Shown in pieces: positions 1 through 39,968 of a DNA stretch of 64,000 bases. Position 1 is the stretch's first letter; the number at the start of each line of letters is the position of its first letter. Position numbers and translations under genes: made by a program. The notes beneath the pieces are model-generated. The model did no database searches. It was given only the letters and a program-made list of their open reading frames with translations, and was not told the DNA's origin. Source of the DNA: Escherichia phage JH2; the sequence record KF055347; one strand, written 5' to 3'.

Positions 1-27
1 CAATTTACAGACTTTTATCAGGCTTGT

Positions 28-261
28 CTAGTCTTTTTCAATGATAATTTCATATTGACCATCAACGCTGTCAAAATAAACGCCGTCGCTGTCTTCTGTC
101 TTAAAATAACACTGAATGTCATCACTGGCGGGGTAGTCTTGTCTTGCTATCTGACAGACCTGAACGGCATTTTCTTTACTTCCTGTAAACTCCTCAAGCC
201 CTTTAAAATCACATGAATGGCCATTACAAATAGAAAGGATAAGATAAACGGTTGTAAGCAT
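28..261 (-). CDS. hypothetical early protein, N-terminal hydrophobic segment
   Basis: 77-aa ORF; N-terminus MLTTVYLILSICNGHSC is hydrophobic; same strand as the small-gene array. Confidence 0.4.
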   Translation of the reverse strand: MLTTVYLILSICNGHSCDFKGLEEFTGSKENAVQVCQIARQDYPASDDIQCYFKTEDSDGVYFDSVDGQYEIIIEKD

Positions 262-324
262 GATTGAAGCCCTCTAAATGGCCCTGTGTGGGCCTTAAGT
301 TAAAAGTTGGTGTCTTTGTACTGC

Positions 325-888
325 TTATCCTAAAAAGTCCTTTAAATTGCGTTCTGTGAGGTTTTCCGTGATTTTATCCAGTAGGTCACAAAACACGGAA
401 CTATCACCGCTATTCTGTACAATTTTTGCAATACTCAACAAATCATCGTCAACATATCCCAAATTGCGGTTTTTCGTATCAGGTACAAAGAAAGGTGCAT
501 ACATCGCACTAAATTTCGTTGAGTGGATACTAACAATCCAATTTTTATCAAAGTATCCGGTAAAGCTGGCAATTTCGCTCATGTTGTCACAAGAATAATC
601 GTCCTCTAGTTCTTCCTCTGGGATATCCATTTCAATAACAATTACGTCCTGCGTTTCCATTTGGAAAGCTGCTGTGATAAGCCCCGACTCTAAGGCGCTT
701 TGAATGCAGCGTTCACGGATATAAGAGACTTCCTCATCTTCCAGACATTCCGTTTTGATAACCTTATTCATTGGATAAACATAGAAACAATCGTCCATGT
801 AGGAACAGTTCCAGATACCTTCAGGCTTATCGCCACCATTCAGCAGGTTTACAAAGTTTTTGAGTGTAGTTCCGTGATAGCATTTCAT
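325..888 (-). CDS. hypothetical early protein
   Basis: 187-aa ORF; start preceded on the coding strand by conserved CCTTAAACTAGGAGATTCAAAA leader. Confidence 0.5.
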   Translation of the reverse strand: MKCYHGTTLKNFVNLLNGGDKPEGIWNCSYMDDCFYVYPMNKVIKTECLEDEEVSYIRERCIQSALESGLITAAFQMETQDVIVIEMDIPEEELEDDYSCDNMSEIASFTGYFDKNWIVSIHSTKFSAMYAPFFVPDTKNRNLGYVDDDLLSIAKIVQNSGDSSVFCDLLDKITENLTERNLKDFLG

Positions 889-980
889 TTTTGAATCTCC
901 TAGTTTAAGGACTTGATTTAGTGGTAAAGCTCTTTATCTGGGGCTTACTTTATCGAACTATAAGCCCCTTGTAAAGTACT
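889..980 (-). promoter_or_regulatory. early intergenic cassette type A: GGGGCTTA..TAAGCCCC hairpin plus conserved AGGAGA leader
   Basis: near-identical ~90-bp sequence recurs between consecutive small genes; stem GGGGCTTA (940-947) pairs with TAAGCCCC (961-968). Confidence 0.55.
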
Positions 981-1184
981 TTATCGGTTATTTTTGATAA
1001 CTTTTAAAACTGCGCGGTATCCTAAGCAATAAGAATCACCGAAGAGCGACCGACCCATGAATGAATCCTCTTTGATATCCTTTGCAGTGACAGTCTTTTC
1101 TACGCCGTGAAAAAGAACTATATCGCCAACTTTGATATCTTTGATATGAGTAGTTTCAATGTTTAAACCGTTGATAATAGCCAT
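981..1184 (-). CDS. hypothetical early protein
   Basis: 67-aa ORF flanked by cassettes. Confidence 0.4.
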   Translation of the reverse strand: MAIINGLNIETTHIKDIKVGDIVLFHGVEKTVTAKDIKEDSFMGRSLFGDSYCLGYRAVLKVIKNNR

Positions 1185-1284
1185 TCTTGAATCTCCTAGT
1201 TTAAGGACTTTACTTAGTGGGGAGGTTATCCCTCCCGTTGATTAGTAATTTACTTGTTTTAAAAATCAATGTCAACAAAATTTT
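1185..1284 (-). promoter_or_regulatory. early intergenic cassette type B: GGGAGG..CCTCCC hairpin plus conserved leader
   Basis: GGGAGG (1220-1225) pairs with CCTCCC (1231-1236); same unit recurs at 2048-2134. Confidence 0.5.
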
Positions 1285-1689
1285 TTAGAGTTCTGCATAA
1301 ATTGCATCGCAGATACCACGAAAATCATGATTTGTCAAATTACGTTGTAACCAAGTGGCGAAAAAGTCAGCGATTGCAAAGTTAGCGTCATACTCGACAG
1401 ATAGCCATACTTTAACAGCAAATCTAAGCATTTTCAAATCCAGCTCTCTATTCATTACCTTAGATTTGCCTAACATGTCGGTCATTTCATATTGCGCACC
1501 GTCTAGCGTGATACCGGCTGCAACGTCAGCCAATGAGTTTTTTACGCTTTCAACGTCTAAGATAACACTTTGAATCTTCCCGATAATGTTTTGCAGTGTT
1601 TCGTCTGGCGCTGATGACGTGATAACATTAATCCGGTTGACGGTCAAACGTGCTTTTAAGATTAATAATTCGCGGTTATTAATAGCCAT
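1285..1689 (-). CDS. hypothetical early protein
   Basis: 134-aa ORF flanked by cassettes. Confidence 0.5.
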   Translation of the reverse strand: MAINNRELLILKARLTVNRINVITSSAPDETLQNIIGKIQSVILDVESVKNSLADVAAGITLDGAQYEMTDMLGKSKVMNRELDLKMLRFAVKVWLSVEYDANFAIADFFATWLQRNLTNHDFRGICDAIYAEL

Positions 1690-1774
1690 TTTTGAATCTC
1701 CAATTTAGGATTTAGTGGTAAAGCTCTTTATCTGGGGCTTACTTTATCGAACTATAAGCCCCTTGTAAAGTACT
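1690..1774 (-). promoter_or_regulatory. early intergenic cassette type A
   Basis: repeat of ctctttatctggggcttactttatcgaactataagccccttgtaaagtactttat. Confidence 0.55.
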
Positions 1775-2047
1775 TTATACTAAATGCAGCTTTTTACCTT
1801 TTACTATGATGTAACTTGATGCGCTATTGCTGCAAACATCCTGATAAATTCTGCGCAAACGGCCTTCATAGTATACTTTCCAACTAGTTGGAATCTTTTT
1901 ACCATATCCCGTAGCAGTTTTTTGGAATCCAGCAAGTTGCCAATCCAAAATATGTTGTTCAGCTTGTAAATCCTCGAAGTGCATTACACCGTTCACATAG
2001 TGGCGCAAAGTTACATTTAGAGTACGACCGTTGTTAGTAGTATACAT
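1775..2047 (-). CDS. hypothetical early protein
   Basis: 90-aa ORF flanked by cassettes. Confidence 0.45.
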   Translation of the reverse strand: MYTTNNGRTLNVTLRHYVNGVMHFEDLQAEQHILDWQLAGFQKTATGYGKKIPTSWKVYYEGRLRRIYQDVCSNSASSYIIVKGKKLHLV

Positions 2048-2134
2048 TTTCTAATCTCCTAGTTTAAGGACTTTACTTAGTGGGGAGGTCATCCCTCCCG
2101 TTGATTAGTAATTTACTTGTTTTAAAAACCAAAA
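2048..2134 (-). promoter_or_regulatory. early intergenic cassette type B
   Basis: second copy of the GGGAGG..CCTCCC hairpin unit. Confidence 0.5.
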
Positions 2135-2467
2135 TCAAGAGAAATTTTTTCGTTTGCTCAATTCTTGAACAATTACAGCGTAGTAGTCTTTTAAGTCACT
2201 GATATTTAAAGCATTTATCAGTGAATTATAATCATCGACTAACTGAAAATCATCTTTGAAGATATCACTTATCTGATAGGTTTTCGCTTTGAATCTGAAG
2301 CTCATTTCTAGCCGCTTTATTTGCTCATCACTTAAACGCTCCAGAAAGCTCATTACAAGGCTATTATTGACCTGTTGCGTGATTGCCTTACTTGCCAGAT
2401 TGTAGGCGCTGTAAGCCTTATAAAGTGCTATAATGGCGATGATTGCAGTGATGCCCATCATTAGCAT
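2135..2467 (-). CDS. hypothetical membrane-associated early protein
   Basis: 110-aa ORF; N-terminus MLMMGITAIIAIIALY is hydrophobic. Confidence 0.5.
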   Translation of the reverse strand: MLMMGITAIIAIIALYKAYSAYNLASKAITQQVNNSLVMSFLERLSDEQIKRLEMSFRFKAKTYQISDIFKDDFQLVDDYNSLINALNISDLKDYYAVIVQELSKRKNFS

Positions 2468-2757
2468 GGTGTTACCTCTCTGCGTGATACTTTACCATTT
2501 ACAGTTATCTCATAAGCTTCTAATAAATCACTTTCAGATTTAACAGGACTTTTAAAAGTATCATCATAAACATTAATTTGCAATACAGGCTTTTTATACT
2601 CCCTGCAACTATTCCATAAGCAAATTACTACGCGACGGCCTTTTATTTTGCCGTGTAACCATTCCATAACATCATGACTATTTCTTGATGTCTCGATAAA
2701 ATCAATTTTATTGAGTAATTTGCTTAGATTTTCACGCACTTGATTTGATAATTTCAT
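2461..2757 (-). CDS. hypothetical early protein
   Basis: 98-aa ORF; 7-nt overlap with the downstream gene. Confidence 0.45.
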   Translation of the reverse strand: MKLSNQVRENLSKLLNKIDFIETSRNSHDVMEWLHGKIKGRRVVICLWNSCREYKKPVLQINVYDDTFKSPVKSESDLLEAYEITVNGKVSRREVTPC

Positions 2758-2849
2758 TTTTGAATCTCCTAGTTTAAGGGCTTTATTTGATAAATCTCTT
2801 TATCTGGGGCTATCCTACCAGCTTGTTAGCCCCGTGTAAAGAAATCTAT
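2758..2849 (-). promoter_or_regulatory. early intergenic cassette, type A variant
   Basis: same leader; hairpin variant ggggctatcctaccagcttgttagcccc. Confidence 0.45.
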
Positions 2850-3362
2850 TTAGTTCTTAAAGATATTCATCACTGAATCTTTCAACGATTCCAAACGTTC
2901 TAATACTTCAGATTCTGCGTCTGCGTTGTTCACCTCTTCTTTTAGTCTATCCTCTAAATCATCGCCGTCACGATAGCGCCAATCGAAAGCGTAACCAAGA
3001 TAAAAACTTTCTAAAACCGTGCTACCGTTTGCATCCACAACTTTCGCGGCAAGGCTATACTCTGAAGCCTCTAAATCTCTTTCTAGTTCTTTCTGTAAGC
3101 TTGTGTAAGCCTCTTTCGATGGATTCTCACGGCCTTGTTTTGCATAGTCACTTGAAAGCTGCTTAAGGCTGTAATGCAAAGGGATTGCATATTTAAACTC
3201 ATTACGCTGACAGTTGGTGTTTTTAATAGTTACACCGCCTTGATGGTCATCTGTAAACTCCCAATTATCCATATTATGGCTTGCTTCGTAGCAATTAACA
3301 GCCTCATAAATGATGGAAAATTTTTCTTTTACAACTTCAAAGGTAGCGTCTACAGTTTTCAT
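2850..3362 (-). CDS. hypothetical early protein
   Basis: 170-aa ORF. Confidence 0.5.
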   Translation of the reverse strand: MKTVDATFEVVKEKFSIIYEAVNCYEASHNMDNWEFTDDHQGGVTIKNTNCQRNEFKYAIPLHYSLKQLSSDYAKQGRENPSKEAYTSLQKELERDLEASEYSLAAKVVDANGSTVLESFYLGYAFDWRYRDGDDLEDRLKEEVNNADAESEVLERLESLKDSVMNIFKN

Positions 3363-3457
3363 TTTTGAATCTCCTAGTTTAAGGACTTGATTTAGTGGTA
3401 AAGCTCTTTATCTGGGGCTTAAGATATCAACTTTTAAGCCCCTTGTAAAGTACTTTA
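3363..3457 (-). promoter_or_regulatory. early intergenic cassette type A, GGGGCTTAA..TTAAGCCCC variant
   Basis: ggggcttaagatatcaacttttaagcccc followed by ttgtaaagtactttat. Confidence 0.55.
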
Positions 3458-3730
3458 TCAGATTAAATTGCCAGTTAATGATAAGTGCATTTTATAGCCT
3501 TTTTTGGTAAAAACGTTCACTTTACCGAGTGATTTTACACCTTTAAAAATGTTGTTTGAACTGCGTTTTAAGGTTAGTTGCTTATCAGCTTTCACGCCCC
3601 ACCTTACAGCAGTTTGTTTTCCGTTGTCAACCACTTTTCCGCATAACTTTTTAGCCATAACGCGAGCGTCATCACGAGTCTTTGCAGTAATTACAACGTT
3701 TTTGATAATAGCCATTTTTAAGTTCTCCAA
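3458..3730 (-). CDS. hypothetical early protein
   Basis: 90-aa ORF, basic. Confidence 0.45.
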   Translation of the reverse strand: MENLKMAIIKNVVITAKTRDDARVMAKKLCGKVVDNGKQTAVRWGVKADKQLTLKRSSNNIFKGVKSLGKVNVFTKKGYKMHLSLTGNLI

Positions 3731-3804
3731 TTTAGGATTTAGTGGTAAAGCTCTTTATCTGGGGCTTACTTTATCGAACTATAAGCCCCTTGTAAAGTAC
3801 TTTA
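3731..3804 (-). promoter_or_regulatory. early intergenic cassette type A
   Basis: repeat copy. Confidence 0.55.
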
Positions 3805-4185
3805 TTAGTTAATTTTGAAAATTGTCACATAACCATCGCTCCCGATGATTTGTGATACCCCAGCTTTCTCTACTTGATAGCCCATATTTTCAAGATGGTA
3901 AACAGCATCATCGTAACCATATGCGCCACCCTGATAACGTCGCTTATCACATTTTATCAGGTTTTTACCGCGTCCAGCAAGTGCATTCAGTACGGCTTTT
4001 TCACTTGATAGTGTACCATCTATCATGGTTGCCGTGTAATGGTTGATTTTATTCCCATTAATATCATACTTAAAATTGAATGCGTGAACAATAATCAATT
4101 TACCGTTAAATTTTTCATCAAGTGACTTCTCCAGTGCGTTGCGGAAGTTGTCTTTATTGATGAATTTCGGTGCACGATAAGCCAT
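3805..4185 (-). CDS. hypothetical early protein
   Basis: 126-aa ORF. Confidence 0.5.
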   Translation of the reverse strand: MAYRAPKFINKDNFRNALEKSLDEKFNGKLIIVHAFNFKYDINGNKINHYTATMIDGTLSSEKAVLNALAGRGKNLIKCDKRRYQGGAYGYDDAVYHLENMGYQVEKAGVSQIIGSDGYVTIFKIN

Positions 4186-4273
4186 TTTAGAATCTCCTAG
4201 TTTAAGGTAAGTTAGTAAAGCTCTTTATCTGGGGCTTAAGATATCAGCTTTTAAGCCCCTTGTAAAGTACTTT
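4186..4273 (-). promoter_or_regulatory. early intergenic cassette type A
   Basis: repeat copy, ggggcttaagatatcagcttttaagcccc. Confidence 0.55.
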
Positions 4274-4480
4274 TTATATATCGTAATAGTAAACCGCTGT
4301 CTGTTTTATATGTCGCTTTGTATTCTTTGTTAGGTAGCAATTAGAGTTAATTGCCGTTTCTACATAGTTGCAATAATCAGCTTCTGATATTCTACGCCAT
4401 GCGCCGCACACTTGCATATAAAAACGTTTTGCCTTTGTGTTAACGTTGGTTGTAACCATCAATTCGCGACTGTACATCAT
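4274..4480 (-). CDS. hypothetical early protein
   Basis: 68-aa ORF; first gene downstream of the repeat-rich non-coding region. Confidence 0.4.
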   Translation of the reverse strand: MMYSRELMVTTNVNTKAKRFYMQVCGAWRRISEADYCNYVETAINSNCYLTKNTKRHIKQTAVYYYDI

Positions 4481-4987
4481 TTTGGATTCTCCAGTTTAGG
4501 AAGTGGGCTTGCTTGCCCGTCTGATGCAAATATTAGATAACCATACTCAAAGAGTCAATAGGAATTTTAAAAATATTTTTGCAAAAAACTGTAATGAAAC
4601 GGGCGCACGCGACTACCACAAAACAGAACTACAATCAAGAATTATTTTTCAATCCGCTACAAATTTTTCTGTTGACTTTTCTTTTCGGATGTGGTAGCCT
4701 TGTGAGAAATGGCGACATCCCCACCTACACCCACCTACCTGCACAATTCTAAAATGATTTTTCTTGCCCGACCTGAGTGGGTTCTGCACGTTTTGAAAAT
4801 GAAAAAGCTCTTTGGAGATTACCTGCACAGTTTGAAAATGAATTTTCTCTTTGGAGTTCAAAATTCTCTCTACAGATTTCTGTCCAGAACTCTACCTGCA
4901 CAATCCTGAAATGAAAAAACCCTCCTTACCTGAAAAATTTACCAGATAAGAAAGGCTTAGTCTATTGTGAATATTCTACAGAGTTTC
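4481..4987. repeat. ~500-bp non-coding region with four direct repeats of CTGCACA(A/G)TT(C/T)TGAAAATGA
   Basis: repeat copies begin near 4737, 4784, 4821 and 4894; only short low-complexity ORFs; a GGGC..GCCC hairpin near 4504-4517. Confidence 0.5.
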
Positions 4988-5773
4988 TTAGTTCTTTGCG
5001 TCTAAGAAGGTAACTTCCGGTGAAGAGAAAATTTCCTCGATATCCTCATCAGTTCTTGCATAGATATACGTATCTGCATCACTGCCAAATGTTACTGCAA
5101 TCTTGTGATTGCTCTTCGACAGGTGGGTAACTAGGGCGTTACTTAGAGACATCTTTTCAACCGGAGGGTTACTTTGATGTATCTTGCCTTTTCTTCGTCT
5201 GAAGAGGGTAACTGCATCATCAGTGAACACTACTACACCTGCAAAGTATTCTGGTTCACAGTAGTTCTTCCAACCTGAGCGTAACTTGTGGTACATCTCT
5301 CCTTCGTAGACATACAGATACACATCTACACTCTTCATCAACTGATTAATGATAACGGTGACGGCTTGAGGGTCTAGCCCACCGATACCTGCACCAATCA
5401 TAGGTAACCCAACTTTCTTCAACTGATTAACTTCACAGTATCTGTTAAGCTGTTTCAAAGATGACTCTAAAGCACTATATCGGGCATCTTTACCAGTCTT
5501 AAGCTGAGTGTAAAGATTAGCTATACGGCCTTGTTCTAAACGTGCTACAGAGAAATTGCCTAGTAAATTTTCACAGGGTTTGTTACGAATGCCACCTGCA
5601 AACAGGTAAACTTCTGTGTTAGTATCATACACTTTTGGATAACGCTTAGAAATAGTTGCTGCAATACCTGCACCCATGAAATTCATACAGTTGCAACCAT
5701 GACCAATGATATCAAATTTACCTTTATCAAAGGCGTCAAAGATATCACCTTTGATGATTTTTACAATACCCAT
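4988..5773 (-). CDS. putative macro-domain (ADP-ribose binding/processing) protein
   Basis: 261 aa; N-terminal DIIGHGCNCMNFMGAGIAATISKRYP resembles the macro-domain Gly-rich ADP-ribose binding loop; C-terminal half unassigned. Confidence 0.4.
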   Translation of the reverse strand: MGIVKIIKGDIFDAFDKGKFDIIGHGCNCMNFMGAGIAATISKRYPKVYDTNTEVYLFAGGIRNKPCENLLGNFSVARLEQGRIANLYTQLKTGKDARYSALESSLKQLNRYCEVNQLKKVGLPMIGAGIGGLDPQAVTVIINQLMKSVDVYLYVYEGEMYHKLRSGWKNYCEPEYFAGVVVFTDDAVTLFRRRKGKIHQSNPPVEKMSLSNALVTHLSKSNHKIAVTFGSDADTYIYARTDEDIEEIFSSPEVTFLDAKN

Positions 5774-6010
5774 TTAACATCTCTCCCAAGATTCTTTATC
5801 TTCTGAAGGTTTTACACGCTGTCCTTCATGGTCTACCCAGATACATCCACAACCTTCACAGATTACTGGCATTGCATAGCCAGCTTTAAAGTCGTCTTCA
5901 GTGATAAGACCTTTTAAGTCACCTGTATCACGTCCGAACATTTCGATAGCACAGTCTTTACAGAAGTCAGCCATGAATAATTGCCTCTTGAATGATGATG
6001 CCTTTACCAC
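5774..6010 (-). CDS. hypothetical Cys-rich protein
   Basis: 78 aa with CKDC..CEGCGC. Confidence 0.4.
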   Translation of the reverse strand: MVKASSFKRQLFMADFCKDCAIEMFGRDTGDLKGLITEDDFKAGYAMPVICEGCGCIWVDHEGQRVKPSEDKESWERC

Positions 6011-6200
6011 AACGACTTTTAAAATCTTCTAATGGTTCAGAGAAGAAGTTACGGAAATGGTTACTGCACTCACGTTTCATCACCTTCTTGTAAGTTAACG
6101 CATCTTCTCCTGCAAACGGAACGACTTCATGTCTCCCTTTGAATACTGCTGAACTTACAATCTTACGTGTCTTTTTATCTCTGGCTAGTATTACTTTCAT
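5967..6200 (-). CDS. hypothetical protein
   Basis: 77-aa ORF; 44-nt overlap with the downstream ORF. Confidence 0.35.
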   Translation of the reverse strand: MKVILARDKKTRKIVSSAVFKGRHEVVPFAGEDALTYKKVMKRECSNHFRNFFSEPLEDFKSRCGKGIIIQEAIIHG

Positions 6201-6507
6201 AGTTTACCTTCTCAGTTAGCTCATACAAATCAACATGCTCAATACTATCAATGTTGATACCAATCTTTTTGAAGCGTTCTATCACTTCGTTGTCAGTCAT
6301 CCATATCAGACACCAATGATTGTGGATGGATTCTTCAAGAAGGTCAACACAATCTTTAAAAGTCTTTGTGTCACTTCTTGTTCCGACTACTGCGATTGTC
6401 CCATACAACCACTTACCATTACCATATGATACTTGTGCTACGCCAACTTCTTTATCTTTCTCGTAGTAAACGGCTACAAAGTCTCTTCCATTAATCTGCA
6501 TAGTCAC
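6175..6507 (-). CDS. hypothetical protein
   Basis: 110-aa ORF. Confidence 0.45.
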   Translation of the reverse strand: MTMQINGRDFVAVYYEKDKEVGVAQVSYGNGKWLYGTIAVVGTRSDTKTFKDCVDLLEESIHNHWCLIWMTDNEVIERFKKIGINIDSIEHVDLYELTEKVNYESNTSQR

Positions 6508-6773
6508 TTCCTCGTTTTAAGAACTGCTAAGATTTCTTTAGAGTCTGGTAAGAACCATGTGTAGTGATTCTCTTTGATTTCTGGATGAGTGTCAACCTTT
6601 ATTTTACACTCTTTACCAACATGCTTAAGCTGTGCTGTGACACCTTGCATAAAGATATGACACATCACGTTGTCCATAATGGTTGGTGAGAAATCAACCC
6701 GCATATAAGTTTCTTTTGGTCGTGGTAGCAGTAAGTACCCTTCTACATAGAAAGTGTCTTCATTCTCTGTCAT
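6504..6773 (-). CDS. hypothetical protein
   Basis: 89-aa ORF, 4-nt overlaps at both ends. Confidence 0.45.
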   Translation of the reverse strand: MTENEDTFYVEGYLLLPRPKETYMRVDFSPTIMDNVMCHIFMQGVTAQLKHVGKECKIKVDTHPEIKENHYTWFLPDSKEILAVLKTRK

Positions 6774-7039
6774 TGCTGTTTGTTTCCTAATAAAATCATA
6801 TCAATAAGGTTATTAGCTTTGATTGTGCACTGGTAAAAACCATCACGATAAAACTCAAGGGCTGCTGCCACATCACTACCAGTATTACCTTTGACAGTGA
6901 ATCTTGATTCTTCTTGAGTATACTTGTCACTCTCACTTACTTGGGAGTTTTTGAATGTACTGTTCACTTTGCTCGTTGAACACCCTGACATAATTATCAG
7001 TAACACAAACATTATAAAACTCTGGCTTAGTCTTTTCAT
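6770..7039 (-). CDS. putative o-spanin (outer-membrane lipoprotein, Rz1-like)
   Basis: 89 aa; signal peptide with lipobox IMSG-C; overlaps the 3-prime end of the upstream TM protein gene out of frame. Confidence 0.45.
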   Translation of the reverse strand: MKRLSQSFIMFVLLIIMSGCSTSKVNSTFKNSQVSESDKYTQEESRFTVKGNTGSDVAAALEFYRDGFYQCTIKANNLIDMILLGNKQQ

Positions 7040-7280
7040 ACGTTAGTACCTCTTTTGTATGCTTATTCTTAGCAAGCACATCTTTCAAATCATTTTTGTA
7101 ATTGGTGCTGAGTGTGGCTAAACCTTCCTGATAAGCATCTTTGGCAACACTTATTAGTTTCTCATTATTTAGCTCAGCTTCAGCAACTTGATAATCTCTG
7201 TAAGAGTATCCTCCCCAGACACCTGCCCCAACTAAGAAAACAATTATGAAAGTAGCTTGACAAAACTCTTTAAATGTCAT
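6933..7280 (-). CDS. putative i-spanin (Rz-like, N-terminal TM plus periplasmic helical domain)
   Basis: 115 aa; single N-terminal TM ATFIIVFLVGAGVWGGY then charged helical region; overlapped by a lipoprotein gene. Confidence 0.45.
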   Translation of the reverse strand: MTFKEFCQATFIIVFLVGAGVWGGYSYRDYQVAEAELNNEKLISVAKDAYQEGLATLSTNYKNDLKDVLAKNKHTKEVLTYEKTKPEFYNVCVTDNYVRVFNEQSEQYIQKLPSK

Positions 7281-7299
7281 TTAACAATCTCCTGAAATG

Positions 7300-7320
7300 A
7301 AAAAGGCTCCCGAAGGAGCC
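7300..7320 (-). terminator. rho-independent terminator-like hairpin
   Basis: GGCTCC-CGAA-GGAGCC (7305-7320) followed by a T-run on the minus strand. Confidence 0.5.
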
Positions 7321-7332
7321 TGTATCTTAACC

Positions 7333-7812
7333 TTAACTGAGGACTTTAGCAAGGATATTCGCAGCCATCGAAGAAGCTTTTGCAGCAGCAACTACGCCAG
7401 CTTTGACAGTGCCACCCTTAATAGCAGATACCGTTGCAGCATCAGTAAAGAGATAAGTGATTGTTTTAGAACCACTTGTAAAGGAAAGCATAAGAGTAGT
7501 TTCCAGATTGAAAGAGCGATACGGAGCACCTTCTTTAACGATACCTTCAGCACCTAACTCTGAAGCCTTACCCATATCATAGATAGTCATCAGGTTTTCT
7601 TTGTGTGCAGTCGTTGAACCAGCACCTTTTACGTGCTTCTTAACATTTAACAATGCACGATATTCACGAATGCTGCCATCAGCTTTTACATTAACAGCAC
7701 GGAAAATTTTACCTTCAAAGTTACCTTGAATCATTTTACGAACTACTTCAGATTTGTTTGCCGTATCGTCCAGTGCTACCGTAATGATATTGTTCATAAG
7801 TTTTTCTCTCAA
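7333..7812 (-). CDS. hypothetical protein
   Basis: 159-aa ORF. Confidence 0.5.
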   Translation of the reverse strand: MREKLMNNIITVALDDTANKSEVVRKMIQGNFEGKIFRAVNVKADGSIREYRALLNVKKHVKGAGSTTAHKENLMTIYDMGKASELGAEGIVKEGAPYRSFNLETTLMLSFTSGSKTITYLFTDAATVSAIKGGTVKAGVVAAAKASSMAANILAKVLS

Positions 7813-8504
7813 TGTTTAACTAACATGGTTTTAATGTGTGGAAGGATTCTGTTTACCTTCTGAACATTCTTCTCTGTATCTTCTATAAAGCATACTATAT
7901 TAAAGTAAGGAAGAATGCAAGACTGTATCATCCTCACTTTTAAACTTTCTGCACTTATAGAGTTAGTTCCAAAACCACGCATAAAAAGCATGTAATCATG
8001 CTCTATGTTATGCCTTAAAAACATCTCAGTAGGTATTCTCTGAGATTCACCTCTAGCTGTCAAGAGTCCAATGGCAGCATGATTAGCAATTGCATCAATA
8101 ATACTAAAAACATATGTTGGTTTTGCTCTTACAGAGTCAAGAAGATTAGTGTACTGTGAGAATGACCCATCAGTCAATTCCGTTGAGCAATCTTCGTGAT
8201 TAAAATTTGTAAGAACACCATCAATATCTGCTAAGATGAGGTTACCTTTTTCTACAAGGTCTTTATTGACTATGACTAAACTGTCACGTCTTACACCTAT
8301 AGATTGTCCGGTCTCTTTGTCCACAACGTTCACAATTGGTTCTGATGTGTGAAACTCTTCAAGTGAACATACAACTTCTCTTGCAGTATCTTCAAAATCT
8401 CTGCACTGTTCTGGAGTCCATACACAGTAATCGAGACCTAGCTCATGAGGATGCAAGTCGTAAGCATGACACAGTACTTCATCAGACTTTCTTAATTTTT
8501 TCAT
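7809..8504 (-). CDS. HAD-superfamily hydrolase-like protein (putative phosphatase)
   Basis: 231 aa; LILADIDGVLTNF matches the HAD DxDG(T/V) phosphoryl-acceptor motif. Confidence 0.45.
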   Translation of the reverse strand: MKKLRKSDEVLCHAYDLHPHELGLDYCVWTPEQCRDFEDTAREVVCSLEEFHTSEPIVNVVDKETGQSIGVRRDSLVIVNKDLVEKGNLILADIDGVLTNFNHEDCSTELTDGSFSQYTNLLDSVRAKPTYVFSIIDAIANHAAIGLLTARGESQRIPTEMFLRHNIEHDYMLFMRGFGTNSISAESLKVRMIQSCILPYFNIVCFIEDTEKNVQKVNRILPHIKTMLVKH

Positions 8505-9030
8505 GATTTACCTTAGAAATGTTTGTTGCAAATTCACATTGAGCGATAACTTTCATATTGTTATAGACATCTTGAGAGTATTTCTTAGCTTTAGGAATTT
8601 TGTACGAATACCCAGCATTATATGACGCTAAAACTTTTTGTAAAGTCTTCTTTGACTTTGGTTGACCATGTACCTTCGTCCAAAACTCAAGCTCTTTGTG
8701 TGTTTCCTTTGCAGCATAGTCGAAGTCTTTTAAGAGTTTCTTTTTAGCCACATTAGGACTGATTTTGTTACGCTTTACAACAGTCTTCAAGTGATTCTGG
8801 AAGATACCATAGTCATGGGTCTTTTTATTCTCCATATTCAGACCTAACTCTGACTCTTGTAAGGCTATAGCAGCTAGAGTGATGCCCCACCCTTTACCCA
8901 TATTATTCTCACCATACTGGTAAGCTTTTAACATATTTACTTTTTGGCTAATTGATAGCTCTGGGCAGTCAACTGCATAAGATAAGTGTGCTGTAAACAT
9001 TAAGCACAAACCTAGAATCAATTTCTTCAT
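8482..9030 (-). CDS. signal-peptide lytic transglycosylase-like protein (candidate endolysin)
   Basis: 182 aa; Sec-type signal MKKLILGLCLMFTAHLSYA; AIALQESELG...DYGIFQ resembles the family 1 lytic transglycosylase catalytic motif. Confidence 0.5.
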   Translation of the reverse strand: MKKLILGLCLMFTAHLSYAVDCPELSISQKVNMLKAYQYGENNMGKGWGITLAAIALQESELGLNMENKKTHDYGIFQNHLKTVVKRNKISPNVAKKKLLKDFDYAAKETHKELEFWTKVHGQPKSKKTLQKVLASYNAGYSYKIPKAKKYSQDVYNNMKVIAQCEFATNISKVNHEKIKKV

Positions 9031-9061
9031 TGGTTCTCCTGTTTAGTTTATCGTGACCACA

Positions 9062-9090
9062 ATTATACAGCACTCTGCACAAAATACAAA
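9062..9090 (-). promoter_or_regulatory. sigma70-like promoter candidate (TTTGTA-N17-TATAAT)
   Basis: on the minus strand a perfect TATAAT (plus 9062-9067) lies 17 nt after TTTGTA (plus 9085-9090), upstream of the transglycosylase gene. Confidence 0.4.
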
Positions 9091-9095
9091 TAAAA

Positions 9096-9115
9096 AAGGC
9101 CGCCGAAGCAGCCTT
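9096..9115 (-). terminator. terminator-like hairpin downstream of the rIIB-like gene
   Basis: AAGGC..GCCTT stem with GC-rich interior, flanked by A/T runs. Confidence 0.45.
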
Positions 9116-9130
9116 TTAAGAAATTACTTA

Positions 9131-10240
9131 TTAGATTTCACGTTTACGTTGGGAGATGAGTTCTCCAGCAGTGCCAACGATGATATGCAAAGCTTCAGTA
9201 TTACCATCCCATGCTTTCAGCACTTTACGTTGATTATCAACGATTGCTGCAACTTCATAACGAGAGGAACGCATCTTCATATCGTTGTAATCAGTTGGAA
9301 CAGATACAACATCTCGTGGATGGACACGAACCTTCAGGATGGTATCACCTGAGAAGTAACGAACATAACCCCAAGCACCAACATGAAGACCTTGAGAGCA
9401 AGTTACGTTACGATTGTTATCAACCATCCAACGTGGCATCTCTACAATGTTACCCAAATCATTAGGTACTTTGTAGGTGTGAGAGTCAACCAGCTTGCCT
9501 TCATGAGTAGAGACTTTCTTCCAACCAATGATGTAGCCTTCTTCATCAATTTCAACATCAAGGTGAGATACAAATCCCCAAAGTTGTTCTACAGAGTCTT
9601 TAGATGGGTTTTCCATCAGTTTTTCGAAGAACATTACAAGTCGTTCAAAACCTTTATCGCCAGTCTTCATCATGTGAAGGATACGGTCAACCAGAGTAGA
9701 ACGCATCTCAACAGCACCGTAGAATAACTTATCACCTTTGATTGTGATAGCACCCTGAGTGAAGTTTTCGATAGACTTACGAATGTTCATCAGTTCAAAG
9801 GCTTTCTTGAACTCACCTTTCACAACATGAACTACAATCTCTTGATAGTTCGGATGAGTAGACTCAACAATTTCAGATTCTGAACCATAAGTCATAATTA
9901 CAGAATCACCAGTAATCATGTATTCAATCTTGTCATCTTTCTGCATAGCTTCATGCAGTTTATTTACCGGAGCTTTTTGTACAGCCTCTTTAACAACCTT
10001 TTCAACTGGTTTTCCAGCTTTCTTTTTAACTGACTTAGCAACTTGCTTCAAAGTCTTCGTAGCTGGTTTAGAAGCTGCCTTTTTCTTACCTTTTAAGGTT
10101 GCTTCATGACGCTCTACAGCACGACCAACTGAACGGGTTGAAGTATTGAACTTCTGTGCAATAGCTGTTTTAGTCAGCTTACCTTCTTTAACCAGTTTGT
10201 AAATTTCTGCGTCAATCTGTGCTTTAGTTTTAGTAGTCAT
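9131..10240 (-). CDS. rIIB: rIIB-like protein
   Basis: 369 aa directly downstream of the rIIA-like gene; C-terminal CSQGLHV...VHPRDVVSVPTDYNDMKMR resembles T4 rIIB as I recall it. Confidence 0.6.
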   Translation of the reverse strand: MTTKTKAQIDAEIYKLVKEGKLTKTAIAQKFNTSTRSVGRAVERHEATLKGKKKAASKPATKTLKQVAKSVKKKAGKPVEKVVKEAVQKAPVNKLHEAMQKDDKIEYMITGDSVIMTYGSESEIVESTHPNYQEIVVHVVKGEFKKAFELMNIRKSIENFTQGAITIKGDKLFYGAVEMRSTLVDRILHMMKTGDKGFERLVMFFEKLMENPSKDSVEQLWGFVSHLDVEIDEEGYIIGWKKVSTHEGKLVDSHTYKVPNDLGNIVEMPRWMVDNNRNVTCSQGLHVGAWGYVRYFSGDTILKVRVHPRDVVSVPTDYNDMKMRSSRYEVAAIVDNQRKVLKAWDGNTEALHIIVGTAGELISQRKREI

Positions 10241-10284
10241 CTTATTACTCTCTCTTGTTAGTTAATAAATCATTTTGTGAGGTT

Positions 10285-10314
10285 ATTCTAAGGGGCTTCA
10301 AAGCCCCTTGTCAA
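10285..10314 (-). promoter_or_regulatory. sigma70-like promoter candidate with palindromic spacer (TTGACA-N18-TAGAAT)
   Basis: minus strand TTGACA (plus 10309-10314), spacer holds GGGGCTTTGAAGCCCC, then TAGAAT (plus 10285-10290); between rIIA and rIIB. Confidence 0.45.
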
Positions 10315-10319
10315 ACACT

Positions 10320-12686
10320 TTAATCGTAAATTGTAGTCCCTTCTGGAACACACTTCACATCAAAGCCTAAGAACTTACTCACTTCGATGGGTGACACTTT
10401 ATTCCAATCTAAATGAGAAAGCAAGAAGTTTTCTTGTTTTCTTTTTGAAAGATAGTTTGTCACCTTAATGACCATACGGTCACCAGCTTTCTTGATTTTC
10501 TTGTACAGCTTTGTATCGTTGTCAAGACATTCTTTCAAAGTTTGCAATCTACTAATAGTATAAGTGTATGCAAACGGTGCAGCAACGTATTGGATTTTAC
10601 CAAACATTGCCTCAACAGCATCTTCATTACCTTCTAAGAAGATGGTTTTGTTTGTGTCTCGTGAATAGCAATAGCCACGAGAAATCTTTCTGTTATTGAA
10701 CGTAAAGTTTCTGGCAATAATCCAACTGCTTGTAAGGTCGAGGACACCATCCATATAGATACGTGTCATATATCTGTTATGATTAATCCAATGAACATCA
10801 GTTAAGCTGTCGTTCAAGAGCTTCTCATCTACTTCAATCCAGTCTTCTGGTATCTTTTTCCAATTTGCTTTTCGGAAAACATATACTGTCTTTCCAATGA
10901 CATTGGCAACTGACTTAGCTACATCTTCTGGAGATGAGCAAAAACATTCGCCATCAACTGTGTCGCCTACTGCCTTAATATAAAGCTGAGGCTCTTCAAT
11001 CGTATCTAAGTCTTCTGACACCTCTTTGTATGAAGCTACACCTTCTGCTGGAACAGCTTTCCAAAGTTTTACAACACCTCTTACAGCTTCTTTACGCTGA
11101 TAATGATGTTCCTTATCAGACATCTTCACAATCTTTAACAAGCTTTTATCAAGTTTGTGCAGATTGATTAGGTTGTCTAACTCTTTTTCAGTCGAGAATA
11201 CAAAGACAATACCATTGTACCTGTGAAACATACTTGACTCGCTGGCATAGTCTCGACATGCACCACGCAGAATCTGGTTGCGTCCTACAGTTTTCTCAGT
11301 ACCATTTTTATTGCGACGGTCATTGATAACAAACAGAAACTGTTCAATTTGGCTTTTGCGCATTGCACCAAAGATATTGAACATACTTGCCTCTTGAGTG
11401 TAGGAAAGCGATGTTGCACGAATCTTACTCTCTAAAGAGTTGAACTTGACATAAGCAACTGGATTATAAAGATAATCTACTTTAGGGATGTTGTTTCCAT
11501 TCCTATCAACCTTAATATTACCTTTGCCGTCACGTTCATAGATGACTGAGCCGTCTTCTGCGTAGATAATTCCACGACGAATGTTTAGTAATTCTTCTTC
11601 CAGAGAATCAAGCTTAACACCTCCCCACTCTAGCTTTGGACACACAGCATTAAACATCTCTCGTGAGTTCAAGCGTAACTCAGCATAAGCCTGTGCAGCA
11701 TCCATGAGTGTAGGTTGGCTATTAACTTTCTTGATAACATCCTTTGTAATTGCTTCAGTTATCTTTTTAGTAGCCTCAATGATAACATTTTTTGTCGTAT
11801 CATTCATCTGCAATGCTTCACGAGAAGCTGCAATAGCAACTGAACCAATAGGCATGTAGATGTTTACAAGGTCTACGCTCCTACGGAAAAATTCTGGCAA
11901 TACTTTGAAGAAATCATCACCAAGTAATGCTTCCATATTAACAGGGTAGGCAATGTTACCCATCACCACATTAAACTCTGTCCTGTTACCACTAGAACGC
12001 CAGCTTTGCTTATGAATCATGGCATCATAAACACCTTCTTCACGGGCAATGACGTTCATATCTGCTAATACATCGTCATACTCGATATTACTTTCTGGTT
12101 TTACAGCAAAGTATGAGTATACGTGACCAGCCTCTTCAAAGAACTTTGAGATACGATGGTCAGCAACTGCTACACGTACAGCTAAACCATTAGGTTCTTT
12201 TGTTGGGTTGGTGGTCAGCTTAGTTACTTGAGGGATACCATTCTCAAGGTAAACAGAGTACTTATTAACAACACCATCAACATAGCTAGATACTGTGAAT
12301 GACTGAGCAATTGCAAATGGAGATTTTGAGCCGATACCCATTGCACCAATGTAGTCATTAGAGTCATTCTTCGTAGAAGCTCCGTAGTTTAGATACAAAC
12401 TCATAACTTTATCATGAGTCAATCCAGTTCCAAAATCACGAACTTCAAAGTAAGGCTCAAAACGAGTAGGTAAATGCACATGGAAAGGGGTGTTCTCTTT
12501 TCCAGCTTCTTTCTGAGCATCTACTGCGTTACATGACAGTTCACGAATAACTGCCCTTTCTTTAAAGGTATATACACCAGAACTCAAAAGGCTGAACATT
12601 TCAGGTGTCATTGTAATCTGTGCTTGAGACGTCTCTAAAGAAGTTGAACTCTTAATCACTTCTGCGTGGTCGTTTACCATGCGCAT
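10320..12686 (-). CDS. rIIA: rIIA-like protein with N-terminal GHKL-type ATPase domain
   Basis: 788 aa; ELSCNAVDA, DFGTGL and GAMGIGSKSPF match Bergerat-fold N/G1/G2 boxes; size and adjacency to rIIB fit rIIA. Confidence 0.65.
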   Translation of the reverse strand: MRMVNDHAEVIKSSTSLETSQAQITMTPEMFSLLSSGVYTFKERAVIRELSCNAVDAQKEAGKENTPFHVHLPTRFEPYFEVRDFGTGLTHDKVMSLYLNYGASTKNDSNDYIGAMGIGSKSPFAIAQSFTVSSYVDGVVNKYSVYLENGIPQVTKLTTNPTKEPNGLAVRVAVADHRISKFFEEAGHVYSYFAVKPESNIEYDDVLADMNVIAREEGVYDAMIHKQSWRSSGNRTEFNVVMGNIAYPVNMEALLGDDFFKVLPEFFRRSVDLVNIYMPIGSVAIAASREALQMNDTTKNVIIEATKKITEAITKDVIKKVNSQPTLMDAAQAYAELRLNSREMFNAVCPKLEWGGVKLDSLEEELLNIRRGIIYAEDGSVIYERDGKGNIKVDRNGNNIPKVDYLYNPVAYVKFNSLESKIRATSLSYTQEASMFNIFGAMRKSQIEQFLFVINDRRNKNGTEKTVGRNQILRGACRDYASESSMFHRYNGIVFVFSTEKELDNLINLHKLDKSLLKIVKMSDKEHHYQRKEAVRGVVKLWKAVPAEGVASYKEVSEDLDTIEEPQLYIKAVGDTVDGECFCSSPEDVAKSVANVIGKTVYVFRKANWKKIPEDWIEVDEKLLNDSLTDVHWINHNRYMTRIYMDGVLDLTSSWIIARNFTFNNRKISRGYCYSRDTNKTIFLEGNEDAVEAMFGKIQYVAAPFAYTYTISRLQTLKECLDNDTKLYKKIKKAGDRMVIKVTNYLSKRKQENFLLSHLDWNKVSPIEVSKFLGFDVKCVPEGTTIYD

Positions 12687-12714: not shown

Positions 12715-12891
12715 TTACTTATTAAACATTTTACCAGAACCGCCACACATAGGGCAACAACCTGCCCTTATGTACCCCTCTCCGTTACAGTAGTCACATT
12801 TTTTGTGCTCTGCAAAGTACTTACAAAGAAGGTAAACAAACACTGCTACACTACCAAGTGACAGTAAAATTTCTATCCAATATGCTTGCAT
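12715..12891 (-). CDS. small TM protein with C-terminal CxxC..CxxC zinc ribbon (not in ORF track, under 60 aa)
   Basis: hand translation MQAYWIEILLSLGSVAVFVYLLCKYFAEHKKCDYCNGEGYIRAGCCPMCGGSGKMFNK; overlaps the 3-prime end of the upstream ORF by 19 nt. Confidence 0.3.
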   Translation of the reverse strand: MQAYWIEILLSLGSVAVFVYLLCKYFAEHKKCDYCNGEGYIRAGCCPMCGGSGKMFNK

Positions 12892-17935: not shown

Positions 17936-18331
17936 TCATTCAAACACTACCTGACAAGGAACCTGTTTAGTAATAAACTCTTCACAGTGTTCTTTAATGA
18001 AGTTTTGTAATGGCACACTGTCTTGTGCACAAGTCATTAGCATAATGTACTCTGGATTCATGATATTTTCAAGGGTGTAGAAGACAACATCGTCAGATAA
18101 TTCATGACCATCTTCTTCAGACCAAGTTCCAGTGACTACAGCTAGTTTATCAAGTAACTCATTAGGCAACGCTACACCGTCTTCTACGGAATCACTTAGA
18201 ACATTGTCGCTGATGTACAATGTGAAGACTGTATGGAATGTTGAGTATTTTACGTGATTCTTTTCGCAAGAGCCACACTCTGAGGCGTAGTCTTTAACCC
18301 ACTCTAACTGTTTTTGGTTCAACTTAATCAT
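17936..18331 (-). CDS. hypothetical protein
   Basis: 131-aa acidic ORF. Confidence 0.45.
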   Translation of the reverse strand: MIKLNQKQLEWVKDYASECGSCEKNHVKYSTFHTVFTLYISDNVLSDSVEDGVALPNELLDKLAVVTGTWSEEDGHELSDDVVFYTLENIMNPEYIMLMTCAQDSVPLQNFIKEHCEEFITKQVPCQVVFE

Positions 18332-39955: not shown

Positions 39956-39968
39956 CAGGAGAAGTATT

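What the first reader, a model, noticed from the sequence alone, without database searches (positions are those of the whole stretch)
6770..9030. Candidate lysis cassette: signal-peptide lytic transglycosylase plus overlapped spanin pair, no holin identified
The 182-aa protein at 8482..9030 has a Sec signal and a lytic transglycosylase-like ES...GxxQ motif. Downstream, a type II membrane protein (6933..7280) is overlapped out of frame by a lipoprotein gene (6770..7039), the architecture of i-/o-spanins. No holin-like small protein with several TM segments is nearby. Export could be Sec-dependent, or the holin may be one of the small membrane proteins elsewhere in the window (18328..18917, 22438..22644, 46040..46237).
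Basis: partly seen in the sequence, partly recalled or inferred. Interest (0 to 1): 0.45.

Follow-up and report, generated by a model that had tools for sequence, protein, structure and literature searches.

The report
Felix O1-type spanins plus exported transglycosylase
This stretch of a Felix O1-like phage carries an already catalogued pair of overlapping spanin genes and, in a separate transcription unit, a secreted cell-wall-cutting enzyme related to phage T4's uncharacterised Vs.1 protein; it is not a lysis cassette, because the phage's real endolysin lies outside the window.

Summary
In detail: all three ORFs sit at the stated coordinates on the minus strand. The window is a Felixounavirus, 97% identical to AYO145A, EC6 and JN01.

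- **Spanins.** 6933..7280 and 6770..7039 form a two-component spanin overlapped by 107 nt in the +1 frame. The first has an N-terminal TMD; the second has the lipobox MFVLLIIMSGC. The pair is annotated in Felix O1 RefSeq and listed in the 2018 spanin census.
- **Not a cassette.** Two genes and an intrinsic terminator separate the enzyme from the spanins. The enzyme has its own sigma-70-like promoter beside rIIB.
- **Endolysin and holin.** The canonical T4-lysozyme-type (GH24) endolysin maps outside the window. The gene that other records label "holin" is about 38 kb away.

Verdict: known components, partly misread. The only open point is the role of the Vs.1 family.

The parts
8482..9030 (-). 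182-aa exported GH23/SLT-like lytic transglycosylase, a homolog of T4-type Vs.1. Predicted catalytic Glu59; Cys22 and Cys165 are a probable disulfide pair.
8974..9030 (-). Coding region for the predicted Sec signal peptide (residues 1-19, predicted cleavage SYA|VD).
   Evidence: Sequence heuristics. AF2 pLDDT is below 50 for residues 10-19. 150 of 166 family members have a comparable N-terminal hydrophobic segment.
9062..9090 (-). Putative sigma-70-type promoter of the SLT gene (TTTGTA, 17 nt, TATAAT), followed by the RBS AGGAGA at 9035..9040.
   Evidence: Read from the sequence. A promoter is annotated at the equivalent place in AYO145A. It was not reported by the strict consensus scan because the -35 hexamer matches only 3 of 6.
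9094..9117 (-). Intrinsic terminator between rIIB and the SLT gene.
   Evidence: 10-bp stem with 5 GC pairs plus a T-run. Annotated in AYO145A.
7809..8504 (-). Intervening gene of 231 aa, labelled 'polynucleotide kinase' in relatives. Only residues about 85-228 resemble PNK-family phosphatase domains. Not a lysis gene.
   Evidence: phrog_3970 at 3e-134, with weaker PNK phrogs over residues 84-219. No Pfam hit.
7333..7797 (-). Intervening gene of unknown function (154 aa from the ATG used in relatives). Not a lysis gene.
   Evidence: phrog_2267, unknown function. Annotated as 465 nt in JN01 and AYO145A.
7304..7321 (-). Intrinsic terminator directly upstream of the i-spanin gene. It separates the SLT unit from the spanins.
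   Evidence: 7-bp stem with 5 GC pairs plus a T-run. Sequence. Annotated in AYO145A.
6933..7280 (-). i-spanin: 115 aa, N-terminal TMD at residues 6-24, periplasmic Cys92, RBS AGGAG.
   Evidence: phrog_1152 'Rz-like spanin' at 9e-42. Labelled i-spanin or Rz-like spanin in Felix O1 RefSeq and many other records. Listed in the JH2 family of the spanin census. 27% identical homolog in a Kolesnikvirus.
6770..7039 (-). o-spanin: 89 aa, lipobox MFVLLIIMSGC, Cys20, Ser at +2, conserved Cys71. It overlaps the i-spanin gene by 107 nt in the +1 frame.
   Evidence: Lipobox rule, overlap and frame. phrog_4180 at 1e-50 and phrog_456 'Rz-like spanin' at 7e-5. Labelled o-spanin in JN01, CL1 and others. 34% identical homolog with lipobox TASC in an unannotated overlapped ORF of phi63_307.
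45672..46043 (-). Gene labelled 'holin' in many Felixounavirus GenBank records: 123 aa, one N-terminal TMD plus a coiled-coil-like region. Unverified, and about 38 kb from the spanins.
   Evidence: Record labels. No holin family support in PHROGs or Pfam.

Best explanation
The region holds two independent, already described pieces of a Felix O1-type phage whose lysis genes are scattered, as they are in T4.

(1) Spanins. 6933..7280 and 6770..7039 encode an overlapped two-component spanin. The i-spanin is anchored in the inner membrane by its N-terminal TMD. The o-spanin is lipidated at Cys20 and sorted to the outer membrane (Ser at +2). The complex spans the periplasm and disrupts the outer membrane once the wall has been degraded. 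The mechanism is inferred from the lambda Rz/Rz1 paradigm.

(2) Exported enzyme. 8482..9030 encodes a member of the T4 Vs.1 family.
- It is a small GH23 (SLT / goose-lysozyme fold) enzyme, probably exported by Sec.
- It is probably cleaved after Ala19 and stapled by a Cys22-Cys165 disulfide in the periplasm.
- It probably cleaves glycan strands using Glu59.
- It is probably transcribed from its own sigma-70-like promoter in the rII-adjacent region.

The enzyme acts as an accessory periplasmic peptidoglycan-cleaving enzyme. It may pre-weaken or remodel the sacculus, but it is not the phage's principal endolysin. That role belongs to the cytoplasmic GH24 lysozyme encoded outside the window.

What is shown: the ORFs, the motifs, the fold, the homology, the gene order and the absence of the endolysin from the window. 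What is inferred: export, cleavage site, disulfide, enzymatic activity, early timing and the physiological role.
For: Phage identity: the window is 97% identical to AYO145A, EC6 and JN01.

Spanins:
- TMD, lipobox, 107-nt overlap and +1 frame.
- PHROG spanin families.
- GenBank and RefSeq labels, including Felix O1 itself.
- Census listing under JH2 (Felix01, WV8, EC6).
- Both frames conserved in a Kolesnikvirus, with the lipobox and Cys retained.

Enzyme:
- Motifs E59-S60, G75xxQ78, SYNAG and Y151.
- 28 of 45 relatives hit Pfam SLT.
- EtgA profile hit with the catalytic Glu aligned.
- AF2 pLDDT 84.
- Vs.1 homology.
- Signal-like N-termini in 150 of 166 relatives.
- The N- and C-terminal Cys co-occur: 72 with both, 81 with neither, 13 mixed.

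Not the main endolysin:
- The GH24 endolysin is at AYO145A 21125..21589, outside the window, and gives no tblastn hit in the window.
- That lysin was studied experimentally.
- The Felix O1 paper names gp35 as the lysin.
- A further phage contig carries both PF00959 and the SLT homolog.

Separate units: terminators at 9094..9117 and 7304..7321, and six intervening genes in phi63_307.
Against: - No experiment on any Vs.1-family member was found in the searchable literature, so the accessory role is only an inference.
- The protein itself is below Pfam's SLT threshold.
- Signal-peptide cleavage rests on heuristics.
- The promoter has a weak -35 hexamer and expression timing is unmeasured.
- A signal-peptide SLT enzyme does serve as the true endolysin in Campylobacter phage F352, so an endolysin-type contribution cannot be excluded.
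- GH23 includes hydrolytic g-type lysozymes, so lytic transglycosylase versus muramidase chemistry is undecided. Asp73 aligns with an Asp of EtgA and occurs at that position in 55 of 166 relatives.
Confidence: 0.72

Rival explanations
1. The 182-aa protein is the phage's endolysin of the signal-peptide type. It is exported by Sec, kept quiescent in the energised envelope and unleashed when a distant holin collapses the membrane potential. Together with the spanins it forms a holin-less lysis cassette.
For: - The layout (signal peptide plus SLT, about 180-190 aa) matches Campylobacter phage F352 Lys. That protein needs Sec and a holin, and its lysis genes are also scattered.
- UniRef names close homologs 'Lysin'.
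- The catalytic Glu is invariant.
- The spanins lie 1.2 kb downstream on the same strand.
Against: - A canonical GH24 endolysin exists in this phage group and was studied experimentally.
- There is no detectable homology to F352 Lys.
- The enzyme gene is separated from the spanins by two genes and a terminator, and it has its own promoter next to rIIB.
- The spacing is not conserved in a relative.
- From established T4 genetics (my own knowledge, not checked here): T4 e-minus mutants fail to lyse although they carry vs.1.
Confidence: 0.12
2. The enzyme has a role unrelated to lysis. It is an early periplasmic effector that remodels peptidoglycan. Possible purposes are hindering superinfecting phages, tolerating cell enlargement or lysis inhibition, or releasing anhydromuropeptides for recycling or signalling.
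For: - It sits beside rIIA/rIIB here and within about 2 kb of rI in RB69.
- It has its own sigma-70-like promoter.
- The family occurs in 2129 phage records, mostly large virulent phages that also carry other lysins.
- It is not among the Felix O1 virion proteins.
Against: There is no direct evidence for any such role. The neighbourhood is not conserved between phage groups: regB/vs in T4-likes, rIIB and a phosphatase-like gene here. No literature support was found.
Confidence: 0.2
3. The protein is a virion-associated transglycosylase that opens the wall during DNA injection, like T7 gp16, PRD1 P7 or phiKZ gp144.
Against: - A cleavable signal-peptide-like N-terminus would send the protein to the periplasm, away from cytoplasmic virion assembly.
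- It is a small single-domain protein.
- It is absent from the Felix O1 structural proteome list.
- It sits among rII and nucleotide-metabolism genes, not tail genes.
Confidence: 0.03
4. The domain is catalytically dead and serves as a peptidoglycan-binding or inhibitor-type periplasmic protein.
For: It is below the Pfam SLT threshold. Its function has never been tested.
Against: Glu59, Tyr137, Gly140 and Tyr151 are invariant, and Ser60 is near-invariant, across 166 diverse relatives. That pattern is what is expected of an active site.
Confidence: 0.05

Closest known systems
Felix O1 / wV8 / EC6 overlapped two-component spanins (the 'JH2' i-spanin and o-spanin families of Kongari et al. 2018, PMC6139136)
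   Same: These are essentially the same genes. The i-spanin is 97-100% identical to those of Felix O1, CL1 and others, with the same overlapped architecture, TMD and lipobox.
   Different: Nothing of substance differs. Some records mis-start the o-spanin (AYO145A RefSeq, 198 nt, lacking the lipobox) or omit it altogether (phi63_307).
Lambda Rz/Rz1 and T4 PseT.3/PseT.2 spanins
   Same: The same topology logic applies: a type II inner-membrane protein plus an outer-membrane lipoprotein, with periplasmic Cys residues. As in T4, the pair lies far from the endolysin and the holin. The T4 layout is from my own knowledge.
   Different: The architecture is overlapped, not embedded (lambda) or separated (T4). 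The o-spanin has no proline at all. No sequence relation to Rz/Rz1 was tested.
T4-type Vs.1 (conserved ORF next to regB and vs; noted as SLT-like by Nolan et al. 2006, PMC1524935)
   Same: Homologous: 34% identity over 172 aa to RB69 Vs.1, E 6e-20. Similar length, a signal-like N-terminus and the same catalytic motifs.
   Different: The neighbourhood differs (rIIB and a phosphatase-like gene here, regB/vs there). The Felix-type proteins carry the Cys22/Cys165 pair that RB69 Vs.1 lacks.
Family 1 lytic transglycosylases and specialised small LTs (Slt70, MltE, MltC, MltF; EtgA/IagB of type III secretion)
   Different: It is phage-encoded. Sequence similarity is marginal: Pfam SLT below threshold for this protein, and IagB is hit by only 1 of 45 relatives. 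No secretion-system context.
Signal-peptide endolysins (Campylobacter phage F352 Lys; Oenococcus phage fOg44 Lys44)
   Same: Signal peptide plus muralytic domain. In F352 it is an SLT domain of nearly the same size, in a genome with scattered lysis genes.
   Different: No detectable sequence homology to F352 Lys. Here a separate canonical endolysin exists.

Membership tests
Two-component spanin, overlapped architecture | The i-spanin is a type II inner-membrane protein with a single N-terminal TMD. | tested here: met
   One hydrophobic segment at residues 6-24 and none elsewhere.
Two-component spanin, overlapped architecture | The o-spanin is an outer-membrane lipoprotein precursor with a lipobox and a non-Asp residue at +2. 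| tested here: met
   MFVLLIIMSGC matches the PS51257-like rule. K2 and R3 lie in the n-region and Ser is at +2.
Two-component spanin, overlapped architecture | The o-spanin gene starts inside the i-spanin gene in another frame and extends beyond its stop. | tested here: met
   107-nt overlap with a frame offset of +1. The o-spanin ends 163 nt past the i-spanin stop.
Two-component spanin, overlapped architecture | Homology to catalogued spanin families. | tested here: met
   phrog_1152 at 9e-42 and phrog_456 at 7e-5. JH2 family listing. Record labels.
Two-component spanin, overlapped architecture | Required for outer-membrane disruption (spherical-cell arrest when absent). | not testable with these tools
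   This needs phage genetics. No experiment on this spanin family was found.
GH23 / SLT family 1 lytic transglycosylase | A catalytic Glu in an E-S motif at the end of a helix. | tested here: met
   E59 in 166 of 166 and S60 in 160 of 166 relatives. It aligns to the Glu in the WNES motif of EtgA.
GH23 / SLT family 1 lytic transglycosylase | The further motifs: GLMQ-like, AYNxG-like and a conserved Tyr. | tested here: met
   G75xxQ78 (Q in 93 and H in 65 of 166), S136-Y137-N138-A-G140 and Y151.
GH23 / SLT family 1 lytic transglycosylase | Pfam PF01464 at its gathering score. | tested here: not met
   16.7 bits against a cut-off of 21.3, E 0.0055. 28 of 45 relatives match at E <= 0.001, so membership is by transitive and structural evidence.
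GH23 / SLT family 1 lytic transglycosylase | The goose-lysozyme/SLT fold. | tested here: met
GH23 / SLT family 1 lytic transglycosylase | Produces 1,6-anhydroMurNAc ends (transglycosylase chemistry, not hydrolase). | not testable with these tools
   This needs muropeptide analysis. Asp73 aligns with an Asp of EtgA but is not conserved in the family.
T4 Vs.1 family | Full-length sequence homology to Vs.1 of T4-type phages. | tested here: met
   RB69 Vs.1: 34% identity, E 6e-20. tblastn hits across T4-like phages labelled vs.1.
T4 Vs.1 family | Conserved position next to regB and vs. | tested here: not met
   Here the neighbours are rIIB and a phosphatase-like gene. The context is lineage-specific.
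Signal-peptide (SP) endolysin | A cleavable N-terminal Sec signal peptide. | tested here: inconclusive
   The n, h and c regions and the -3/-1 rule fit, and the segment has low AF2 confidence. No dedicated predictor or experiment was available.
Signal-peptide (SP) endolysin | Is the phage's muralytic enzyme responsible for lysis from within. | tested here: not met
   A separate canonical GH24 endolysin is present in the phage group and was studied experimentally. No homology to F352 Lys.
SAR endolysin | An uncleaved, weakly hydrophobic N-terminal TMD rich in Gly, Ala and Ser. | tested here: not met
   The hydrophobic core is only about 13 residues and is followed by an SYA cleavage motif.
Lysis cassette | Contiguous, co-transcribed holin, endolysin and spanin genes. 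| tested here: not met
   Two unrelated genes and a terminator lie between the SLT gene and the spanins. The endolysin is outside the window. The gene labelled 'holin' is at 45672..46043.

The most novel reading that the evidence does not exclude
The Vs.1-family enzyme may not be a lysis protein at all. It could be an early, Sec-exported periplasmic effector, conserved in more than 2000 large virulent phage genomes, that reshapes the host wall during infection. Possible purposes include superinfection exclusion, tolerance of lysis inhibition, or muropeptide release. That role has never been described for any phage.
Probability: 0.2. Interest if true: 0.55.

Novelty: already known. Interest (0 to 1): 0.15.

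Why it matters
It matters little for discovery. The spanins are textbook-type and already catalogued, and the SLT likeness of Vs.1 has been in print since 2006.

The practical value is corrective. The region should not be read as a lysis cassette. The true endolysin lies elsewhere, and several public records mis-start or omit the o-spanin.

The residual scientific interest is that a very widespread family still has no assigned role. It is an exported, apparently active wall-cleaving enzyme found in 2129 phage records and about 1080 clusters at 50% identity. A simple knock-out in T4 or Felix O1 could settle its function.

Tried and rejected
- **Direct PDB sequence search** with the 182-aa protein gave no hits. 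A 12-sequence profile gave only marginal hits to g-lysozyme and spurious hits to a kinase. The 45-sequence profile was needed to reach EtgA.
- **Link to a tested endolysin.** I tried to connect the protein to Campylobacter phage F352 SP-SLT Lys. BLASTP and hhalign found no homology, so it is an analogue only.
- **Bacterial homolog for context.** The 'Campylobacter coli' homolog P0016 turned out to sit next to a chimallin gene, so it belongs to a jumbo phage. Its tblastn hits were all phages.
- **NCBIfam** gave nothing useful: IagB for 1 of 45 relatives.
- **Holin search.** PHROGs and Pfam scans of eight small membrane-protein ORFs in the window found no holin family. The 'holin' label in GenBank for 45672..46043 is therefore unverified.
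- **Literature on Vs.1 function.** Searches found only Nolan et al. 2006. The T4 genome review (PMC150520) is not held.
- **Lipoprotein reading of the SLT protein** (Cys9 in LGLC) was rejected: Leu at -1 and no PS51257 match.
Full report
**What the window is.** The region 6500..9300 is 97% identical over its full length to Felix O1-like myoviruses (Felixounavirus: AYO145A, EC6, JN01, H12). 254 phage records cover at least 80% of it. rIIA (10320..12686) and rIIB (9131..10240) lie upstream on the same minus strand. Using rIIA as the anchor, window position x corresponds to AYO145A position 12612 minus x. The window therefore covers AYO145A 1..12611 and about 35984..87372.

**Check of the observation.**
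- The 182-aa protein begins MKKLILGLCLMFTAHLSYA|VD. It has two Lys, a 13-residue hydrophobic core, and Ser and Ala at -3 and -1.
- 6933..7280 encodes 115 aa with a single hydrophobic segment at residues 6-24.
- 6770..7039 starts within it, with 107 nt of overlap and a +1 frame. It encodes 89 aa whose N-terminus (K2, R3, MFVLLIIMSGC) satisfies the PS51257-type lipobox rule, with Ser at +2.
- No other small membrane-protein ORF on the coding strand lies between about 4.6 and 12.7 kb.

**The spanin pair.**
- The i-spanin hits phrog_1152 'Rz-like spanin' (9e-42). The lipoprotein hits phrog_4180 (1e-50) and, weakly, the spanin family phrog_456 (7e-5).
- GenBank and RefSeq records, including Felix O1 itself, label the pair i-spanin/o-spanin or Rz-like spanin.
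- The 2018 spanin census lists Felix01, WV8 and EC6 in the overlapped 'JH2' family for both subunits. That family also contains phiEco32-type podophages, which matches my tblastn spread.
- The overlapped ORF is real. In Kolesnikvirus phi63_307 the i-spanin (27% identity) is again overlapped by a 91-aa ORF (34% identity). That ORF keeps a lipobox (TASC), the internal Cys and the C-terminal LEYWRD...C...LIDVIL motif, although it is not annotated in that record.
- Each subunit keeps one periplasmic Cys (i-spanin C92, o-spanin C71). This is compatible with the disulfide-linked complexes known from lambda Rz/Rz1 (my own knowledge).
- The mechanism, membrane-spanning complex and outer-membrane disruption after wall degradation, is inferred from that paradigm and was not tested.

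**The 182-aa protein.**
- On its own it is below Pfam's SLT threshold (16.7 against 21.3 bits). It belongs to phrog_600, 'unknown function'.
- A profile of close and distant homologs finds about 1080 cluster representatives at E <= 0.001, mostly 160-200 aa. Of 45 sampled, 28 hit Pfam SLT, the best at 1.5e-11.
- The 45-sequence profile matches the type III secretion transglycosylase EtgA (8urn, 3.5e-5), with Glu59 aligned to the Glu of EtgA's WNES motif.
- Across 166 relatives, Glu59, Tyr137, Gly140 and Tyr151 are invariant and Ser60 is present in 160. This argues for an active enzyme.
- 150 of 166 relatives have a signal-like N-terminal hydrophobic segment ahead of the domain.
- A Cys just after the predicted cleavage site co-occurs with a Cys near the C-terminus: 72 have both, 81 have neither and 13 are mixed. 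These counts are not corrected for phylogeny. The pattern fits a disulfide staple in an exported protein; here the pair is Cys22 and Cys165.
- Whether the chemistry is that of a lytic transglycosylase or a muramidase cannot be decided in silico. Asp73 aligns with an Asp of EtgA but is Ser in most relatives.

**It is a Vs.1 homolog.** tblastn finds the protein in 2129 phage records. These include T4-type phages, where the hit is the conserved ORF vs.1 next to regB and vs (RB69, RB43, T2, Aeromonas phage 65), as well as Kuttervirus and Vibrio schizo-T4 phages. Identity to RB69 Vs.1 is 34% over 172 aa (E 6e-20), and RB69 Vs.1 also starts with a signal-like segment. Nolan et al. 2006 already reported the marginal but consistent match of vs.1 to SLT and suggested 'some role in cell lysis'. 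I found no functional study of it. Two apparently bacterial or metagenomic homologs also sit on phage contigs: one beside a chimallin gene, and one on a contig with DHFR, Mom, Gad2 and a PF00959 lysozyme.

**Why this is not a lysis cassette.**
1. The canonical endolysin of the group (Felix O1 gp35; cd00737/PF00959 lysozyme) is AYO145A gp040 at 21125..21589, in the part of the genome the window does not cover. tblastn with it finds nothing in the window even at E 10. The identical-type lysin of the Felix O1-like phages C600M2 and CL1 was expressed and purified as an N-acetylmuramidase.
2. The SLT gene forms its own unit. A strong terminator (9094..9117) follows rIIB. Then come TTTGTA-17-TATAAT (9062..9090) and AGGAGA, then the gene. 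AYO145A annotates a promoter and a terminator at the same place.
3. Two unrelated genes (7809..8504 and 7333..7797) and a second terminator (7304..7321) lie between the SLT gene and the i-spanin. The i-spanin start follows that terminator by 24 nt.
4. In phi63_307 the order rIIA-rIIB-...-SLT-phosphatase-like-orf is kept, but six genes separate the SLT gene from the spanins. In T4-type phages vs.1 is not next to the spanins at all (plus my own knowledge of pseT.3/pseT.2).
5. The Felix O1 genome paper states that holin-lysin cassettes are absent and that the holin is unidentified.

Many later records label the 123-aa single-TMD protein at window 45672..46043 'holin'.

**Most likely function and rivals.**
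- I take the spanin assignment as secure (about 0.9).
- I take the biochemical identity of the 182-aa protein, an exported and active GH23 enzyme of the Vs.1 family, as likely (about 0.85).
- Its physiological role is inferred. The best guess is an accessory periplasmic wall-cleaving enzyme made from a host-type promoter, not the principal endolysin.
That protein shows no detectable homology to this one, and here a canonical endolysin exists. I give that reading about 0.12.
- A non-lysis periplasmic role (about 0.2) is the most novel reading not excluded.
- A virion-associated role is unlikely, given the signal peptide and the protein's absence from the Felix O1 structural proteome.
- A dead-enzyme role is unlikely, given the invariant active-site residues.

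**Novelty and verdict.** Everything observed is already in public records or papers: the spanins (RefSeq and the 2018 census), the SLT likeness of Vs.1 (2006) and the scattered lysis genes of Felix O1 (2010). The finding is real but ordinary, and its 'cassette' interpretation is only partly right. The one loose end worth an experiment is the unknown role of the very widespread Vs.1 family.

Noticed in passing
window 4736..4929: A noncoding stretch of about 500 bp (roughly 4480..4988) holds three to four direct repeats of 29-34 nt (TACCTGCACA[A/G]TT..GAAAATGA...) spaced 39-84 nt apart. They lie upstream, in minus-strand terms, of the 4274..4480 ORF and downstream of the macro-domain gene. They could be regulatory sites.
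   Followed up: partly
window 7809..8504 (-): The gene labelled 'polynucleotide kinase' in relatives matches PNK families only over residues about 85-228. That part contains a DxDG motif (ILADIDGVL), typical of HAD phosphatases. There is no Pfam hit, and I saw no P-loop in the sequence. The kinase label looks over-stated.
   Followed up: partly
window 39945..40205 (+): An 86-aa ORF has a lipoprotein-type N-terminus (MNSNRRSIMWKAVIVLSVIFLSGC...) and hits phrog_902, unknown function. It is a second predicted lipoprotein in the window, unrelated to the spanins, and could be an exclusion-type lipoprotein.
   Followed up: partly
window 12715..12891 (-): A 58-aa ORF just upstream of rIIA has an N-terminal TMD followed by a CxxCxGxG...CPxCxGxG zinc-finger-like motif (phrog_3931, unknown function).
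   Followed up: no
window 45672..46237 (-): Two small genes follow the tail-fibre genes. The first is 65 aa (46040..46237). The second is 123 aa with one TMD and a coiled-coil-like tail (45672..46043). The second is labelled 'holin' in many GenBank records without any family-level support. Its single-TMD topology is unlike class I or II holins.
   Followed up: partly
L002 (AYO145A RefSeq) 3271..3468; L007 (phi63_307) 7437..7712: There are annotation errors in public records. The AYO145A o-spanin is called from an internal GTG (198 nt), which removes the signal and lipobox, and is named hypothetical. The phi63_307 record does not annotate the o-spanin at all.
   Followed up: yes
L010 8001..8582 and 10019..11953: A 193-aa SLT protein filed under Campylobacter coli (GCA_053226485.1, 215-kb contig) lies 1.4 kb from a chimallin (phiKZ nuclear-shell) homolog. 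The contig looks like a jumbo phage inside a bacterial assembly.
   Followed up: partly
hits H83/H22 (PV390658.1) and H73/H107 (GU169904.1): Two records look mislabelled. The 88-kb Felix O1-like phage vB_EcoM_P54 is filed under Tequatrovirus. 'Staphylococcus phage SA1' (147 kb) contains Felix O1-like sequence at about 97% identity to part of this window, which suggests a chimeric or contaminated record.
   Followed up: no
window 4988..5773 (-) and L005 3374..3838: The 261-aa protein downstream of the spanins is a homolog of T4-type Tk.4 (macro/A1pp domain). In RB69, Tk.4 sits two genes from vs.1. Several T4 early-region genes therefore recur in this Felix O1 region (rIIA, rIIB, vs.1-like, tk.4-like).
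   Followed up: partly
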